Part shown: positions 39,924 to 48,936 of the stretch, piece by piece | How positions within the stretch are numbered: the first letter of the stretch is position 1 | Layout of the letters: every line of letters begins with the position of its first letter | Assembly (NCBI GenBank): GCA_023920165.1 | Contig: CP089281.1 | Coordinates: forward strand, 1,178,001-1,242,000 | Length of the DNA: 64,000 nucleotides | Direction of reading: 5' to 3' | From: Curvularia clavata | Taxonomy: Eukaryota | The notes under the pieces: model-generated | The model's database searches: none | What the model was told of the DNA's origin: nothing | What the model saw: only the letters and a program-made list of their open reading frames with translations | Position numbers and translations under genes: made by a program

Positions 39924-40620
39924 GGTGGAGGTGTGGCTGCGGTGCGAGCCGTACCTGAACAGACTGGTGAGCCTGGCTGGCTTTAAAGCTGCGCGGAGCA
40001 GCACAACATGTCATTGCAATGTTGATCGTGTCCAAAACTTGGCAGGCTGTTCTGCTCGATCCGGACACAATGACGATGTTTCTTACGCACGGTGCGAGAG
40101 TGGGGATTAGCTTCAAACATGCAGAAAGTTACTGGTAGTTAATGGGAATCCCATTTTGTCCAACCAATAAGGATGGAAGTCGATTGCTAGCGCCGATTTT
40201 TGAAGCTGTTGGACGTGGGAAACAGTCGTTAGATGCGAGAAATAGTTGTGGGATGTAGGAAAGAGCAATTAAACCTGAATGGAACCTCATCAGGGATCGA
40301 GACGAAATTGATAGATTTCATTCCTGTCCATGTGTTAGCGATGTCCAAAAGCTACTTGCCATCTCTCACCACGTGACGATGTCAGACCACATTACATGCA
40401 AAGCTTTGACCTAGCCACACCACGTCAGCCACGACTTTCCAGCCCCACACTGCCACAATTCCTTGTTTCTTCACTGTGGAACACTGCATCTCAGATCGGT
40501 TTTGAAGCGGAAAATCACTGATATTGGTATTCGCCTCCAACTCCTGCGCAAAAGTGGAGAAAAAGGTGCAGTCGAAGAAAAGGCAACTTCCTCTCATACT
40601 ACGTATAAACCCCCTATTCA

Positions 40621-42013
40621 TTATAGCACGCTCACCCGTCGTTGCAACATCTGCACCTTGAGCTCCAGTGCCTGACACTCATTCTCCTTGCGGTGCAGAT
40701 CCTTCATTAAAATCTCCTTCTCGGATCGAAGAGCCTGCAGCCTGCCACCGACACTCTCACGGTAGCTTGCATGTTCTTCCAGCAGAGCCTCGATCCTATA
40801 CCAGTCCATCTGGCCAGCAGCAGTGGCGGCAGAAGCACCACCTGCTCCTGACCGTAGCTGCTGAATTTGAGCATCCTTAGCCTTGAGCTTCGCCTCGAGG
40901 TCAGCCACGGTACTCTTCCAAGCCTGATGAGCCGCAGCGCGGTTCAAGTCGTCGATGCTGCCGCTCTGCGTTGTGCCCAGCTGCTCGACAAGATCGGAAT
41001 TCCTCTTTTCAAGCTCAAGCGCACGCTGCTCGAGAGCCGCGACCTTGGCCGCAGTAAAAAGGTCTGTAGTGTCGCGCCTTTCATAAAAACTCGACATGCG
41101 TGGCCGGTTCGGGCTGCTCCGCCCCGTAGGCCCTTGTGCTTGTAACCGCTCTAGCTCCCGCGTCTTCTCGGCAAGCTTGCTACGTACAATTTGGACGTTG
41201 TTAAGATCCTCGTCCCGCAGCGCCTTTGTTGCTTCTAGTTCACGACGGGCTTTAGCTAGCATTCCCTGGTGCTGTTAGTGGTGTGGTTTGGAAGAGCTGG
41301 ACCGTACAGTGACTTACCCGAATCTTGATGTTGTTCTCTACGTCTTCGTCTCGCAGGCTCCAGATGGCCTCATGTCGCTTCCACCATACTTTCTTCTCGT
41401 CTTCCAGCGCTTTCAGGCGGTTTTTCATTTCCGTAAACTCCTCGGGTGTAACAGATGCTGCAGGATTTGCTTGTTCAATGTGAATAAGCTTAGACATCAA
41501 AGCCGCAAGCTGCGACTCCAGAGGACCTGGGAGATGTGGTGCTGGAGCAGGAGATACTGGCTCCTGGCCTGTAAGGCTCATCTTGATCGCAGACTGTGAT
41601 GCTGATTTCTTCAAAGAATAGATGACTTCATCCTCTTGGCCATCCAGCGTTGAAGACCTCGAAGTCGCATCATCGTCAATGGGTCGTGGCTGTAGGTTTG
41701 GCTGGCTCTGATGCTGCACATTTGCCGGCTGAGGAGTTACAACCTGGCTCTCCATCTTCTTTGCCATTAGGTTTGCTGGAGATCCAGCTTGGGGCCGGCT
41801 CCACGCAAGCGGTGCGGTGTTGGTCCTGGGAGGATATGTTTGTTCGTCGTCTGAGCCCAACTCAGAGTAGTTGTCGGAATCGTAGCTCGGTGGCTGTTGC
41901 TGCAACTGAGGCGAATGCATCGATACGGGCCGGCTTGCGGACTGGATGGATGCGATAGAATGAATCGAAGGAGTGCGGTGAGAAGCTGGTTTTGCGCGGT
42001 TCGGTGCCCACAT
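40621..42013 (-). CDS. Hypothetical coiled-coil protein; 2 exons
   Basis: Two long ORFs joined by a canonical intron GTAAGT..ACTAAC..CAG (~41267-41318); heptad-rich C-terminal half. Confidence 0.7.
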
Positions 42014-43130
42014 ATTTTACCGTTAAAAGTAAAGCAAGTATATATACGAAAATCGCGGAGAATAATAAGGTCGTAGGGTTCGTTCGTGCAGTGGCCTCCC
42101 AGAAGCAAACTGCTATTACAACGCGACAAAAAGAAAACAACAAATATACAAAAGCGAACCAGCGGAAGCCGTTGAGCGGTTTGAACATCCGATCTTGCGT
42201 CTTTCCATCGTTGAATATGTAGTCGGTTGCGCCAATGTCGTGAAACCAGCCTGAGACGCAGGGGACCGTGCAGCGGATATCTGCGACGGAAACGGCTGAA
42301 CGACAAGTAGGATGCGAGCCAAGATTCAGCCAGGATAGTCTCAGCCTGAGATTAATCTAGGTATCCTGCACATCGTGGAGGCTCAAACCTCAAACTTATC
42401 TCTATTGACCTAAGCGCAAAGGGAGAAAGAGATGCACAAAGGATGAACATAGTGCAACTTTGCTTCCCCTGATCCCCATACGAGCGCATACATACATGCG
42501 CTGCTGAAGCGCATTCTGAGGAATTCCAAGAAGAAAAATAAAAAACTTTCCGAGCAAGAGACTTCCCGATCACGAGAACTTTAATCCAACCATCACAAAA
42601 AAATCTCCCAATATCAAGAGTTGACGAGGACGACAAAGTTATTACGCAAAAGTCTACGTTTCGCAGGCCAACATGGCTGATGCGCCCCCCTCCATCCATC
42701 TCGATGAGGCTGAAACACATGCAGCGTCAAGGCCGTGTCAACACGCCTTTGGTGCCCCTCTCTTTACGAAAACGTGGAGTAGGCCCTCTCACTCTTGCAC
42801 AGGCTGCCTCAGCCAAGATGTCAGGCTCGCAAAGTTAGATTGGGGATCATCGGCACGCGGTTTCTGGGCGATGTTATTGATTTTGCTCGATAAGGAGGTC
42901 CAAGTCACAGTGCATCCGACCCTTGTTCATCGTGAAGTCGGGGACGATAACGCGTCAGATGAACGACATACTGGTGGTATCAGGCGCCGACAGCAGAGTT
43001 TAGATGATGACGCGGTGGTTGCTTTTTTTCTTCAGCTCGCTCGAGGTTGACAATGATGCATATGTGTGTATGCTTGAAGAAAAGAGTAGGTGTAGTTTCA
43101 ACTCAATTCTGATAAACGTACCTACCCAAC

Positions 43131-45087
43131 TCAAACATCATACCGGTCCGATTTATGATGCACAGGCGTATAAGTAAAATATTCAAACTCGGCCACCTTT
43201 TCCGTCCCATTCATATCCGACGCCGCGACGCCTACAAACGCGCCTGTAAAACTACCATGTCTGTTCAAAGTCAGTATTCATCTCCCTTGCATACATGTAT
43301 TCGGAAGAGGAAGAAACTTACGCCTGATGCCCTCCACACTCATCACTCAAAATCGACGCATCATACACCGGCCCAATGTTCTTCAATTCCTTCTCTCCCT
43401 CAAGTGCATACTTGAACTGCAGTTCTGGGCCCCGTATACTCAGCGCGAGCCTAACTTTACCCTCTTGTGGAATTTGGACCGGGTCCGGAAACGGCATTCT
43501 GAGATTGCCATCGGGCCAGGAGGCCTCAGAGCTCATGAGGAGCAGTTCGCGTTTACCGTCAGAATGCGCGGTAACGGCTAGATAGAAGAAGTTGAAGCGG
43601 CAGTAGTAAGCTGTTAGTCCGGCAAACGTGCGCTCATCATCTGGAGCGAAATCAACGACGGTTTCGGCGTCGTAGGAGAAGTGTGTTTGACGGCGGGCTA
43701 CGAGGGCTTGTTCGAACCAGGAGCCGACGGACTCGCGGCCGATGAGTTGGAGACCCGTTTTCCCAAAACGGAAGATGCGTTCGGGTTCAGGGGTACGCAG
43801 CCATTGGAAGTCTTTGTGTAGCGTAGTTGTGCTGGTGAAGTCGTAGTGTTGAGGTGACCAGTAGGCGGTGTCGTCGCGCTCGGCGGGTAGGTCGACATAG
43901 AGAGACGGCACAGGTCCGTTTTTTACGTACAGCCAATCGTCTTTGTCCCAGTAGGCTTCTTGAATAGCGCTCTCGCGGCCCAACACGCAGCGCCGTGCCT
44001 GGGTCGTCGGCCGCCCAGTCAGATGCACCACGTATGTCTTGCCATCGGGCGTGTCGACAATATCTCCGTGACCTGCTCGCTGTAGTGCAGCCAGGGGCGC
44101 ATCTTTAGACGTAATGATGTACTTCTGCGGATGCAGTTCGTATGGACCCCAGATATCGCGCGATCGAGCAAACGTACACGCATGACCATATGCGGTGCCG
44201 CCTTCAGCAGTCAAAAGGTAGTACCAACCGTTTCTCTTGTACAAATGCGGTCCTTCAACGAGACCGAGTTCCGAACCGGGGAAGATTGTTTTCCGCGGTC
44301 CAACGAGTTTCTCTGTCTTCTCGTCCCATTGCTGCATTCTGATGCCCTGAACATGTAATGTCAGCATGCTCACTCATAAAACTCCACGGGTTTGAAAATA
44401 CTGACAGAGAAGTACTGCGGTCGCCTCCGATGATCCTGAAGCATATTGATAAACCACTTCTTCCCGTCATCATCGTGAAACAAAGACGGATCGAACCCCG
44501 ACGAATTAACATAGATAGGGTCAGACCACGGGCCCTCGATCTTATCCGCATGAACAATGTAGTTTGGGTTATCTTTGAACGAGCCGTCCTTGCGCTTGAC
44601 ATCGGTGTATACGAGCCAGAACTTTTTGCCGTCGTGGGTCAGACAGGGTGCCCAGACACCTTTTGCAGAAAGTGTTATGTCAAGATTCAGTTAAAGTTTA
44701 GCAGAGAAACATACCGCAGCTATCTGGGTCTCCACGCATATCCAACTGGCTCTTCCTTGTCAGCGGACGCGTGACAAGGTCCCAGTTGGCCAGATCCTTG
44801 GAGTGGTGAATTTGTACGCCAGGAAACCATTCAAACGTCGATGTGGCAATGTAGTACTAGGAACAGCAGGAGTTGTATTAGTTGATGCCTCGGTTGAAAT
44901 TGACTTTTTTGTCGAGTTGTGTTACTCACTGCCTCATCTCGTTAGCTTGCCATTCTTCTCTTGGAATTGACCCAAAATAAAACAATTATAAAAACAGAAA
45001 AGATGTAGACATACCATCATCTCCCACCCTCAACACGGAAGGATCCGCATTGAACCCCGGCAGAATCGGATTCCTAACCAACGGCAT
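43131..45087 (-). CDS. Intracellular GH43 beta-xylosidase/arabinofuranosidase (XynB-like); first intervening sequence is a stwintron
   Basis: [67 protein letters not shown] and C-terminal [10 protein letters not shown]; no signal peptide. Confidence 0.92.
44857..45015 (-). other. [D1,2] spliceosomal twin intron: internal 45014-44929 (86 nt); external 45015 + 44928-44857 (73 nt)
   Basis: Minus strand reads GATGAT|G|GTATGT..GCTAAC..CAG|TGAGT..ACTAAT..TAG|TACTAC; only two-step excision gives in-frame DD-YYIATS. Confidence 0.88.
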
Positions 45088-45907
45088 GTTGCTCTTTTAC
45101 TCTTTCTTCTCCCCAAGGTAAGATAAAAGTAAAATGAATTGTTAGCGAACAACGTCAGAGTAAAGCACTAGTTTTTTCCCTAGAGCGGTGCCTACAGCCC
45201 TATTATGTACTACAGCTAGGTAAAACACCAAGGCCTGAAATTTAACCGGGCGACACGCGCTTGTTCGGTTCGACTACTTTTGCCGGCGCCTGTTTTGTTT
45301 GGCCAAAATCAGTATTTCGGGGTACTCGGCGGTTTGACCGTGGTATATAGTAACCCCGCCATAGCCACCCACGTGTGAGGCAACAAGGGAAGGCGGGGCA
45401 GATACATCACGTATTCTGAGCATGCCACTTCTCTTTGCAAATGCTACGGCTCTTCAAGCTCCAAAAGGATTCTGACAAGTCACCAATGATTACATATGTG
45501 GAGCTGATCATGCCGTTTATGCCTCGGCATACCAAATACAGAAGTCCGTATTTGGCAATGTAGTCTGTAGTAGGAGTGGGGATGGACGTGGGGCAAAGGC
45601 TAAAAGGCACATAAACGTACCGTCTGTATCACCAGTATAACACACAACATACACACACAGTTCAAGAAGCTAGGACTGGTATACGCTCATTACATTATCA
45701 ACATCGTAGCGCCCGCCAGCCAAAGGAACCATCGTGAAGACAGATTGGGTATCTTTTTAAGGAACCGATGAACCTGCTACATACGACTCAGATGCCATTC
45801 CGGCCACTCAAAAAGTCTATTTGGTGTTTTGCTTGTTGCACCGAGTGTGAGGCAGACTAGCTCGAGCCGTAGCCTGTAGGGGACAAGATAGGTATGGGTA
45901 GTTAGGT

Positions 45908-47846
45908 TCAGACACTTGAGATACCTTGGTTATTTTCCTCGGCTTCCTCCGATTCCTGATGAGCAGCAGATGCGTTGTTTGATGTCTGGTCGGGGTTGGG
46001 TGTAGCAACGACGCCAGCAGGCAAAGAAAAGCCCTCTCCTTCATCGGTATCCAGTTGCATTAGGAAGGTCTCCCAGATTTCGATAAGCTAGCGCAACCGT
46101 TAGCAAAGTCTAGAAGGTTAAGGTAACGTCAAACCTACCTCCTTCTGTGCTTCTACAGCACTCTCCAGGAACGTCTCCACCCCTGATTTGAAGTCTTCCA
46201 CCTTTTCTCGTTCAAAGCGTTCAAGCTCGCTACGCATAAGACGACCCATGTCATCGAAGAGCAGTCTAGCCTGATGCACCTTGCGTTCGGCATCGGCAAC
46301 GTCTGCGCTGAGTTGGTTCAGACGATCCTGCTGTGATCTGCCTTGCCTCAGAAGCTTATCCTGAGTCGCCTTTCGCTTCTGCAGCTCTTGCTCGGCGGAA
46401 TGCCAAGAGTGGTAGGCCTTTTGTCGCTGCTGGAACGCGGTCTTTACGGAGCCGATCAACCGTATGTACTCGTCAATCACAATGCCCATAGTGAGAACGT
46501 CCTGCTGGGCCTGGCGTTCGTAGAGTTCACGGATGCGGATTTGGATGTCGGAGAGGCTGTCGAGGGGACCGGATAGGGCAGGCGACAACTCCACAGCAGA
46601 CAAAGAATGCAGAGAAGCTGAAAAGTCACCACAAGCTTCAGCTAAACCCTTTCGCTGAGATACAACGGTGTCAGTCGCCTTGAGAAGAGCCTTGAGCTGT
46701 GCTTCAAGCGCATCGAGATAGATTCTTCGGTCGTGGAACCACTACAACGACTGTCAGTATAGAAGTAAGAAAACATAGACTAGCAACGTACATCGTCATG
46801 CTCGATGAACTTGCCGGTACTGCTACCAAGCATGGAGCCAAACATGCCCTTGCTCTCGCCCAGGCCGGGATCTTTGCGTTCCTTGTTCTTGATGTCCATG
46901 TTGAAAGCCTCGCTTTCGAGGAACAGCTTCAAGTCGCTGTCATGCTGCAGTACAGGATGAGCCGCTGACTTGTTGAGCATGCGCTCCAGGGCGGCGCGCC
47001 GAGATTCGACAAAGTCGGCATCGAAGCGACCAACAGCCTGTTTTTCTGGAGGCGGGGGGATGATGACACCAGGGTTATTGTTGTGCAGCTGGTTGTACAG
47101 CCAGAGGAAGTCGCGGTAGCGGCGCGAGACTGTGAATTCCGGATTGCGGTAGCCCTTGGAGGTCGTCTTGGTCGTGACCGAGTACTCAGTGTGGGAGCTG
47201 GTCAGGTCGCCAACCTTGTGGGGGTCGCCTACGGAGATTGAAAAGGATGGCTTCGCCGCCTGCTCGACGCTGACGCTTGGTTGTGTCTGGCGCTGGGGCA
47301 CGGGGTGGGAGGGAGCCTGGACGGGAGGAGGTATCCTCGCCCCTTGGGAGGCCCGCAGCTGCTCGTCATCATTGTCGTCTAGATCAACCGAGTCCATCAT
47401 GCCGCGCAACGAGGAGGCCGAAGAAGCACCCGCTGCTGGCCGGGCACCGCGCGATGCCGCAGCCGCCGCCTCCTTCTGGGGAGGCGCTGGGGCAGTTATC
47501 TCGGGGCCTAGTTCTGGGGTAGATGCTCCCAGTGGGCCCAGAGGATCCTCGACGGCCTCGAGCTTGGTCGACTGAACACCATGGGGTCGCCGTCGGGGGC
47601 CGCGGCCTGCCGGAGATCGAGGCGCGGAGGCAGCAGAGGGAGTAGCATCGGCGGTAAGCTTGTTTGTGGGTGCGGATGAGTCTGTGTCGGGGGCATCATC
47701 GTGGCCCAGCTGCTTCGAGGCACCCGGCGCAGGGCTCGATTGTGAGGGCACATCTGCAAGGCATGTCAGTCTGGCGCGGAGTAGCAAGCGGGAGAGAGTT
47801 GGCATTTACCGCCCCATGGAGAGCTTTCTGCGTCGCCCAGATCCAT
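45908..47846 (-). CDS. VPS5: Sorting nexin Vps5 (PX-BAR, retromer); 4 exons
   Basis: PX motifs VGDPHKVGDLTSSH, VSRRYRDFLWL and PPPPEKQAVGRF; BAR end FKSGVETFLESAVEAQKELIEIWETF. Confidence 0.93.
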
Positions 47847-48110
47847 TGGCGCAGTCGAGAGATGTAAGGGAGGGGGGGTTGTGAGTTTGTCGTTGTTAGC
47901 AGTCGTTGGAGCATGTCGCATTCGGCTACCTATGACATACAGGTTCCACTAGCCGCCAATGGCCCGACCTTACCCTAGCTGTCTGCTACGGAATCTACAC
48001 ATCTCCATGTACATTTACTCGACATCTTCTTATTCATCCGAACACAATTACTCATCTACAGAATATGTATCCGCCTTTGGGCCTAATTACAGTACCGCCC
48101 AACCGTCCTC

Positions 48111-48936
48111 TCACATACTGGGTCCGCCCAGACTCGCCTTGCCATGCTCACAAGTATAGCACACCTTCCCATCCATCGAGCCCAGCCTCATCATCCCCAT
48201 CGTCAGTCCCATGCGCTGACCCAGATGCACAACCCAGCTTTCCACAAAGATAGTGGAACCTATCGGCGCTGGTCTCAAATACGTGCAGTTGACTTTGGAC
48301 GCACCAACAGTTAGCAACATTCTCTGACCTGACTCGGAAAAGCCAACACTTGATATCAAACTTGCAGACGCAAAAGGCGATCGGCACTTACTACCAATGC
48401 ATTAGTAAGACTCATAATCCTGTGCTCATTCACAAACCTACCGATTCCTTGAAACATGCCCCGTATCCCAGAACCCCTCGCGGATACACGGGGAAATAGT
48501 CAACGAGGTGACGAGATCAAATATCATGGCCACCGCGCCACCATGCAGCGTCGCATTCATATTGCACAGTTCTTCCGGCACCACGAAGCTAAACACTGTG
48601 CGGCAATCATGCGGATTGCCCTTTGAAGGATTGTACGTGACCGACTCGAGTTTGAGAATCTTGCACAAGATGGCGTCGTGGCCCTAAAAACACACAACAC
48701 GCCAGCTATTAGAGTTTGTTGAAATGTCGCATAGAAGAGGGCAGACATGCTTGGTATTCCAGTGACGACATCATATTAAACTGTTATTTGGCACACGAGA
48801 GGGGCACATGTCAGCAGGGTTTCATGGGCGTGCGTAGAGACATAGTGGTACCAACCCAGTGCGCGACTTTATCGTACGGAGAATCGGATAGGTTGTAGAT
48901 CAACTTGGGTGCTTTCTTTTCCTCTGAATCACTCAT
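48111..48936 (-). CDS. PaaI/hotdog-fold acyl-CoA thioesterase (ACOT13-like); exons 48936-48856, 48780-48751, 48683-48443, 48292-48111
   Basis: LCNMNATLHGGAVAMIFD and spliced GHVSRNLNCTYLRPAP; the model needs a GTTGGT intron, a GC-AG intron and a stwintron. Confidence 0.85.
48293..48442 (-). other. [D1,2] spliceosomal twin intron: internal 48441-48391 (51 nt); external 48442 + 48390-48293 (99 nt)
   Basis: Minus strand reads AATC|G|GTAGGT..ACTAAT..TAG|TAAGT..GCTAAC..AAG|TCAACTGC; internal excision recreates a perfect GTAAGT donor and gives N-L-N-C-T-Y-L-R-P. Confidence 0.88.

What the first reader, a model, noticed from the sequence alone, without database searches (positions are those of the whole stretch)
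44857..48442. Two stwintrons of the same class about 3.3 kb apart
Both are [D1,2] and on the minus strand, in unrelated genes separated only by VPS5. By eye their internal introns share no obvious similarity, so they do not look like recent copies of one element. Two among roughly 50 introns in 64 kb suggests (inference) that stwintrons may be far more common in this genome than annotation implies, or that this region favours intron-in-donor insertion.
Basis: inference. Interest (0 to 1): 0.7.

Follow-up and report, generated by a model that had tools for sequence, protein, structure and literature searches.

The report
Two old nested introns, neighbouring genes
Two nearby genes of this fungus each carry an intron nested inside the start signal of another intron, an old and rare arrangement of a known kind whose closeness is probably a coincidence preserved by gene order, and which trips up gene-prediction software.

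Summary
Both [D1,2] stwintrons are real. A (48442-48293) lies in a thioesterase-family gene and B (45015-44857) in a GH43 xylosidase gene, with VPS5 between them. Transcript contigs join the exons across GG..AG in 4 of 4 (A) and 3 of 4 (B) runs. The genome is a Pleosporaceae fungus.

The abundance reading fails. Eleven motif searches over 32.4 Mb gave 289 hits against 415 for reversed controls. Reading them left 7 coding [D1,2] stwintrons, these two included, plus 1-2 doubtful ones; I estimate about 8-15 in all. A 214-kb neighbourhood holds no third.

The closeness is therefore unusual (P about 0.005-0.04). But both are old: the same positions carry stwintrons of diverged sequence in syntenic Alternaria-, Pyrenophora- and Phaeosphaeriaceae-like loci. 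A and B share no similarity.

Best reading: two independent ancient gains held together by gene order. A local-seeding origin is not excluded, since a published Hypoxylon table has 5 pairs within 3.5 kb against about 1 expected. Public gene models often break at both sites. The splicing intermediate was not seen. New members of a known kind.

The parts
48293..48442 (-). Stwintron A, [D1,2], 150 nt, phase 1, third intervening sequence of the thioesterase-family gene
   Evidence: Motif scan; frame; GG..AG joint in 4 of 4 runs; same position in 7 distinct relatives
48391..48441 (-). Internal intron of A, 51 nt (GTAGGT, ACTAAT, TAG)
   Evidence: Sequence; 47-52 nt in all 8 orthologous copies; separate excision inferred, not seen
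48293..48390 (-). Remainder of the external intron of A; with G48442 it forms a 99-nt GTAAGT..GCTAAC..AAG intron
   Evidence: Sequence; 59-103 nt in orthologues, external donor GTRAGT in all 8
44857..45015 (-). Stwintron B, [D1,2], 159 nt, phase 0, first intervening sequence of the GH43 gene
   Evidence: Motif scan; frame; GG..AG joint in 3 of 4 runs; complete at the same position in 3 distinct relatives
44929..45014 (-). Internal intron of B, 86 nt (GTATGT, GCTAAC, CAG)
   Evidence: 53-54 nt in orthologues
44857..44928 (-). Remainder of the external intron of B; with G45015 it forms a 73-nt GTGAGT..ACTAAT..TAG intron
   Evidence: strain variants in run X1 spare all five signals
48111..48936 (-). 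Host gene of A: 177-aa thioesterase-superfamily (4HBT/hotdog-type) protein, four exons
   Evidence: Exons from RNA joints. The family comes from PF03061 on fused public models that hold the orthologue; this protein itself was not scanned against Pfam
45908..47846 (-). VPS5 (PX-BAR sorting nexin), the gene between the two; three ordinary introns
   Evidence: PX domain; homologues named Vps5; joints
43131..45087 (-). Host gene of B: 540-aa GH43 beta-xylosidase, five exons
   Evidence: PF04616 and PF17851; large exon 95% identical to a Bipolaris sorokiniana GH43; joints

Best explanation
Each element is a standard [D1,2] spliceosomal twin intron. The short internal intron (about 50 nt in most orthologues) is defined and excised first. 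This joins the leading G to TRAGT and creates a strong GTRAGT donor, and a second U2 reaction then removes the external intron, so the mRNA looks as if a GG..AG intron had been cut. Shown: the end product, the frame and the conserved signals. Inferred: the two-step order.

Both were gained long ago, before Pleosporaceae and Phaeosphaeriaceae split, most likely as two independent events in genes that were already neighbours. They stay 3 kb apart because the thioesterase-VPS5-GH43 order is conserved. The genome as a whole has few [D1,2] stwintrons (7 found, about 8-15 estimated), and they are of mixed ages.
For: GG..AG joints without ambiguity.

A is a [D1,2] at the same codon position in 7 distinct relatives: L073, L075/76, L077, L078/79, L080, L081, L084. 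B is complete in L074, L075/76 and L078/79, and its 5' half is seen in the truncated L077. Their VPS5 DNA is 81-84% identical to the window's; nearest named relatives are Alternaria, Pyrenophora, Parastagonospora and Paraphoma.

No A-B similarity across orthologues: 3% of 128 comparisons at p<0.05.

L074 has a 60-nt canonical intron at site A whose first 15 nt match the external intron of L073/L075 at 13 (p=0.012 against the L073 external core, p=0.28 against L075). This is what loss of the internal intron through the intermediate would leave, the route described in PMC5639578 (Discussion).

Census: read. A local re-scan found no unlisted site. The HAS1 stwintron looks young, with models distorted only in Bipolaris/Curvularia records, so gains are spread in time.
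Against: Under a uniform null a pair within 3.43 kb has P=0.005 (N=7), 0.010 (N=10), 0.023 (N=15) and 0.042 (N=20). Both gains could map to the same branch: A is absent in a Massarineae-like locus (L085/86) and the Dothidotthia model is intact there, and B-site models are intact in all Didymellaceae and Massarineae records listed. The Hypoxylon table shows an excess of close pairs. The intermediate lacking only the internal intron is not among the joints shown (5 rows were hidden). The census was judged by frame and homology, without RNA, for the five elements outside the window.
Confidence: 0.68

Rival explanations
1. Ancient local seeding: one [D1,2] stwintron gave rise to the other, or both arose in one local episode of repair or reverse splicing in co-located transcripts, in an early Pleosporineae ancestor. 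Sequence likeness has since decayed.
For: P 0.005-0.04 for the spacing. Compatible gain branch. In the Hypoxylon table, 5 pairs within 3.5 kb among 115 rows against 1.0-1.15 expected (P 0.003-0.007), 2 of them in neighbouring genes. Propagation of whole [D1,2] units is proposed in PMC12403724 (abstract, introduction).
Against: No A-B similarity in any orthologue, although some within-A orthologue pairs still align. Different phases. No third element in 214 kb. The window was picked after the fact from a very large scan. Three of the 5 Hypoxylon pairs are within single genes of 5-15 introns, which a per-base null ignores.
Confidence: 0.2
2. Context bias rather than seeding: stwintrons are gained or tolerated more often in intron-rich, non-essential metabolic genes, which themselves cluster, so close pairs are commoner than a uniform null predicts.
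For: The host of A also has a GTTGGT donor and a GC-AG intron. Hosts in the Hypoxylon table include many transporters and dehydrogenases. The excess of pairs there extends to 10 and 25 kb.
Against: VPS5 between them has three ordinary introns, and another stwintron of this genome lies in HAS1, a core ribosome-biogenesis helicase (role recalled).
Confidence: 0.08
3. Stwintrons are abundant in this genome (tens to over a hundred), so the spacing is unremarkable.
For: The motif set is not complete: rarer donor and branch-point combinations and very long internal introns were not searched, and cases in UTRs cannot be judged by frame.
Against: 289 hits against 415 reversed-control hits; the strict consensus pattern gave only 10 hits in 32 Mb, 3 of them real. 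The patterns catch 12 of 12 complete orthologous stwintrons (extracted with a similar motif, so optimistic; L081 site B would be missed).
Confidence: 0.03
4. Single-step excision at a non-canonical GG donor, with the internal signals being chance.
For: Only the end product was seen.
Against: Internal branch point, acceptor and TRAGT are kept in 8 of 8 A and 4 of 4 complete B copies whose cores have diverged; internal length of A 47-52 nt.
Confidence: 0.01

Closest known systems
Uniquely occurring [D1,2] stwintrons of Hypoxylon sp. CO27-5 (81 of 117; PMC9024468)
   Same: Same five-motif anatomy; both elements fit the paper's search model. Sequence-unrelated, position-conserved across related taxa, seamless in coding exons. 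Close pairs also occur in its Table S1.
   Different: Different class of fungi and different positions. The Hypoxylon PF03061 stwintron no-311 sits about 8 codons upstream of site A by my reading of its flanks, and no GH43 host is listed. Density here is about ten times lower (7 found in 32 Mb against 117).
Sister [D1,2] stwintrons of Hypoxylaceae/Xylariaceae (PMC8469720 listing; PMC12403724)
   Same: Same splice architecture.
   Different: Sisters are sequence-similar, species-specific and terminally symmetric. A and B are dissimilar, old and show no stable fold (MFE z +1.0 and +0.2).
lipS [D1,2] and bioDA [D2,3] stwintrons (PMC5639578)
   Same: Old, position-conserved stwintrons, with reversion to a canonical intron by loss of the internal intron, as seen here in L074.
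   Different: Single genes, no neighbouring pair; lipS is reported to lack the stwintron in Dothideomycetes.
Helminthosporium solani [D1,2] and [D1,2]/[A2,3] stwintrons (recalled; these papers did not appear in the library searches)
   Same: Pleosporalean [D1,2] stwintrons, so the type is already known from this order (recalled).
   Different: Different genes. A and B cannot be [A2,3] because the next exons start with T.

Membership tests
[D1,2] stwintron | 5' G followed by a canonical internal donor | tested here: met
   G-GTAGGT (A), G-GTATGT (B)
[D1,2] stwintron | Internal branch point and HAG acceptor directly followed by the rest of the external donor | tested here: met
   ACTAAT..TAG-TAAGT; GCTAAC..CAG-TGAGT; kept in orthologues
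[D1,2] stwintron | External branch point and acceptor | tested here: met
   GCTAAC..AAG; ACTAAT..TAG
[D1,2] stwintron | Mature mRNA lacks the whole element including the first G | tested here: met
   CT..CC joints of 150 and 159 nt, both=0, in 4 of 4 and 3 of 4 runs
[D1,2] stwintron | Splicing intermediate lacking only the internal intron | tested here: inconclusive
   Not among the joints shown; only contigs were available and 5 joints were hidden. Indirect support from the canonical intron at site A in L074
Uniquely occurring (old) [D1,2] stwintron | Same position occupied by diverged stwintrons in related taxa | tested here: met
   A in 7 distinct relatives, canonical in 1, absent in 1; B complete in 3, truncated in 1, altered in 1
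Sister (propagating) stwintron | Sequence similarity between copies in one genome | tested here: not met
   A vs B p=0.93; of 21 pairs among the 7 elements only A-L031 and L019-L031 scored, probably through the shared junction signals left in the comparison (alignment not inspected)
Sister (propagating) stwintron | Terminal inverted symmetry or stable stem | tested here: not met
   MFE z +1.0 (A), +0.2 (B); B has no self reverse-complement signal; A has one (p=0.003) without a stable fold
Alternatively spliced [D1,2]/[A2,3] stwintron | Downstream exon begins with G | tested here: not met
   Exons begin TC (A) and TA (B); met by L034 and L182 elsewhere in the genome

The most novel reading that the evidence does not exclude
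[D1,2] stwintrons are born in local clusters: an existing one seeds another in the same or a neighbouring gene. This pair would be a fossil of such an event in early Pleosporineae, matched by the excess of close pairs in the published Hypoxylon table, which I did not find remarked on in the parts of that paper I read or searched.
Probability: 0.2. Interest if true: 0.62.

Novelty: new member of a known kind. Interest (0 to 1): 0.36.

Why it matters
It adds two transcript-supported, family-wide [D1,2] stwintrons and a first rough census for a Pleosporaceae genome, showing that stwintron load differs about tenfold between fungal lineages.

In practice these sites corrupt public gene models: 7 of 35 named Pleosporales GH43 models break at site B, and several records fuse thioesterase, VPS5 and GH43 into false multidomain proteins.

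The orthologous series (intact, internal intron lost, possible micro-exon form) is a ready system for studying stwintron loss. If local clustering holds up, it would constrain how new introns arise, which is an open question.

Tried and rejected
Sequence relation between A and B, forward and reverse-complement, in the window and across orthologues: none.

A translated intermediate of A: removing only the internal intron leaves an open 33-aa insertion here, but the external lengths in all 7 orthologues are not multiples of 3, so it is not a conserved isoform.

A weak upstream GTGGGA donor for B (single in-frame intron): contradicted by the RNA joint at 45016.

A third stwintron nearby: the published model, widened, gave 4 hits in 214 kb, and the two others were not convincing.

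One wave of gains: HAS1 models are distorted only in Bipolaris/Curvularia (4 flagged, a fifth shortened by eye; 30 of 38 scored intact, 4 lacked the motif), unlike A and B.

Automatic coding scores mis-ranked the known cases, so candidates were read by eye. Most were ordinary introns followed by an exon starting TRNGN, pairs of ordinary introns round a small exon (L028, L198, L333), or non-coding chance. Five rows of a tandem array on C7 were not fetched on their own.

The plasmid search only confirmed GH43. No earlier notes on this genome or on look-alike stretches. The CO27-5 genome size was not found; 46.6 Mb is recalled and 40 Mb was also tested. Homologues of gene A beyond the VPS5-linked loci were not surveyed.

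Full report
Observation. A spans 48442-48293 (internal 51 nt, external 99 nt, phase 1). B spans 45015-44857 (internal 86 nt, external 73 nt, phase 0). Removing each whole, first G included, gives the frames SRNLNCTYLRP and [15 protein letters not shown]; keeping the G shifts the frame. Contigs of four public runs show the joints 48292-48443 in 4 of 4 runs and 44856-45016 in 3 of 4, both with GG..AG ends on the minus strand and no positional ambiguity. The runs are marked RNA by guess and are contigs only, but they skip the ordinary introns too. Run X1 holds the GH43 gene unspliced, with 6 substitutions and a 9-nt insertion inside B; none destroys a splice signal, and the insertion rebuilds the branch-point hexamer. 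The intermediate lacking only the internal intron was not among the joints shown.

Context. The host of B is a 540-aa GH43 xylosidase whose large exon is 95% identical to a Bipolaris sorokiniana protein, so the genome is a Pleosporaceae fungus: 32.36 Mb in 8 contigs. The gene between is VPS5. The host of A is a 177-aa thioesterase-superfamily protein; that label rests on PF03061 in public fused models holding its orthologue, not on a scan of this protein.

Abundance. Eleven three-motif patterns (G + internal donor, branch point, acceptor + rest of the external donor) were run over the whole genome. They gave 289 hits against 415 for the reversed controls; hits overlap between patterns. The strictest pattern gave 10 hits, two of them A and B. 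All hits but five rows of a tandem array were fetched and screened, by script and then by eye for those with an open frame or strong signals. Five more coding stwintrons remained: L005 (HET domain), L019 (no Pfam match), L031 (HAS1 helicase), L034 (DUF7735) and L182 (TRI12-like transporter). The L034 exons match profile positions 5-71 and 74-142, and HAS1 homologues read FLKKHQKKKVIVF, the stwintron product. L041 may be one in a 5' UTR and L179 is doubtful. None of these five has RNA support here. A local re-scan of all own-genome DNA held found no site the tool had not listed. The patterns catch 12 of 12 complete orthologous stwintrons, an optimistic figure since those were extracted with a similar motif. 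Allowing for unsearched signal combinations I estimate about 8-15 elements (inference), against 117 in Hypoxylon CO27-5 (PMC9024468, abstract and section 3.1). The abundance reading is not supported. The part about annotation is: 7 of 35 named Pleosporales GH43 models break at or just past site B (read by eye; the script's own flag also caught plain substitutions). Four fused models join VPS5 to GH43 right after site B, and two models break at site A.

Clustering. The published five-motif model, widened, finds no third convincing case in 214 kb around the pair. Under a uniform null, a pair within 3.43 kb has P=0.005, 0.010, 0.023 and 0.042 for 7, 10, 15 and 20 elements, and 0.76 for 117. So the spacing is unusual, but the window was chosen after the fact from a very large scan.

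Age. A VPS5 search of metagenome contigs returned 80 loci; 12 hold a relative of gene A and 7 a relative of gene B. Site A is a [D1,2] stwintron in 7 distinct relatives, a 60-nt canonical intron in L074, and intron-free in the Massarineae-like L085 (L086 gives the same match). Site B is complete in 3 distinct relatives, truncated by the contig end in L077, and altered in L081. The nearest named relatives of these loci are Alternaria, Pyrenophora, Parastagonospora and Paraphoma/Setomelanomma, so both elements predate the Pleosporaceae-Phaeosphaeriaceae split. Internal introns of A are 47-52 nt while external ones run 59-103 nt, and the external donor is GTRAGT in all 12 complete copies, as expected if a short internal intron must be defined first (inference). 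The canonical intron in L074 starts like the external intron of its closest relatives (13 of 15 nt; p=0.012 against one, 0.28 against the other), consistent with loss of the internal intron via the intermediate as proposed in PMC5639578 (Discussion). A and B share no similarity in the window or across 128 orthologue comparisons. The HAS1 stwintron looks much younger, so gains were spread over time.

Against simple chance. Gene order appears older than both elements (L085; shared contig lengths for VPS5 and GH43 records in three Massarineae; adjacency not shown), and the data allow both gains on one branch. I also re-counted Table S1 of PMC9024468. I used 115 rows, after dropping two duplicates and two EC38-only rows. 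Three of the five pairs are within one gene of 5-15 introns and two are in neighbouring genes, so a per-intron null could remove much of the excess. This keeps local seeding alive at about 0.2.

Literature seen. PMC9024468: abstract, sections 2.1, 3.1, 3.3, 3.5, 4, term searches, supplement parts 1 and 4-10 of 16. PMC12403724: first of six parts and term passages. PMC5639578: Discussion and term passages. PMC6048567: one term search, no hit. The other papers were seen as listings only. Searches for 'stwintron' (12 papers), 'stwintron + Pleosporales' (2), 'twin intron + Alternaria' (1, unrelated) and 'GG-AG intron fungi non-canonical splice' (3, unrelated by title and abstract) showed no report of these two loci; term searches for thioesterase and GH43 were run only in PMC9024468, its supplement and PMC5639578. 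Subscription papers, such as the Helminthosporium solani work (recalled), and unread supplements could hold them.

Verdict. Two genuine, old, uniquely occurring [D1,2] stwintrons in a conserved three-gene block: new members of a known kind. The genome is poor in them, not rich. Their closeness is most likely a preserved coincidence, with a testable minority case for clustered origin.

Noticed in passing
window 48855-48781 and 48749-48683 (-): The other two introns of the thioesterase gene are also non-standard: a GTTGGT donor and a GC-AG intron, both with RNA joints.
   Followed up: partly
L074:479-538: A 60-nt canonical intron at site A in an Alternaria-like locus, resembling the external intron of its closest relatives at its 5' end: probable loss of the internal intron.
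   Followed up: partly
L081:9910-10107: At site B the internal acceptor is followed by TT and then GTATGT: either a weak GTTGTA external donor, or two ordinary introns round a 2-nt micro-exon adding one valine, or an assembly error.
   Followed up: no
L031:1501-1617 (G000 C4:2924422): A 117-nt [D1,2] stwintron in the HAS1 helicase gene; public models are distorted at this site only in Bipolaris/Curvularia records, so it is probably a recent gain.
   Followed up: partly
L005, L019, L034, L182 (G000 C1:5757321, C2:3994513, C5:479374, C1:27254): Four more probable [D1,2] stwintrons; L034 and L182 have a G-starting next exon and could also be spliced as [A2,3]. L041 (C5:2136186) may be one in a 5' UTR.
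   Followed up: partly
Public proteins P0121, P0127, P0131, P0132, P0137, P0145: False fusions of thioesterase, VPS5 and GH43 in Bipolaris, Alternaria, Pyrenophora, Clathrospora and Dothidotthia records; one cluster has 129 members.
   Followed up: yes
PMC9024468 Table S1: Close pairs of Hypoxylon stwintrons exceed a uniform expectation (5 against about 1 within 3.5 kb); the second sheet lists several stwintrons within single genes in Daldinia and Hypoxylon rubiginosum.
   Followed up: partly
G000 C7:2.823-2.827 Mb (L320-L323): A tandem array with a unit of about 72 nt carrying splice-like motifs matched one pattern nine times.
   Followed up: no
window 40484-45388: Run X1 holds the GH43 gene as one unspliced contig while its neighbours are spliced: antisense or read-through RNA, or DNA.
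   Followed up: no
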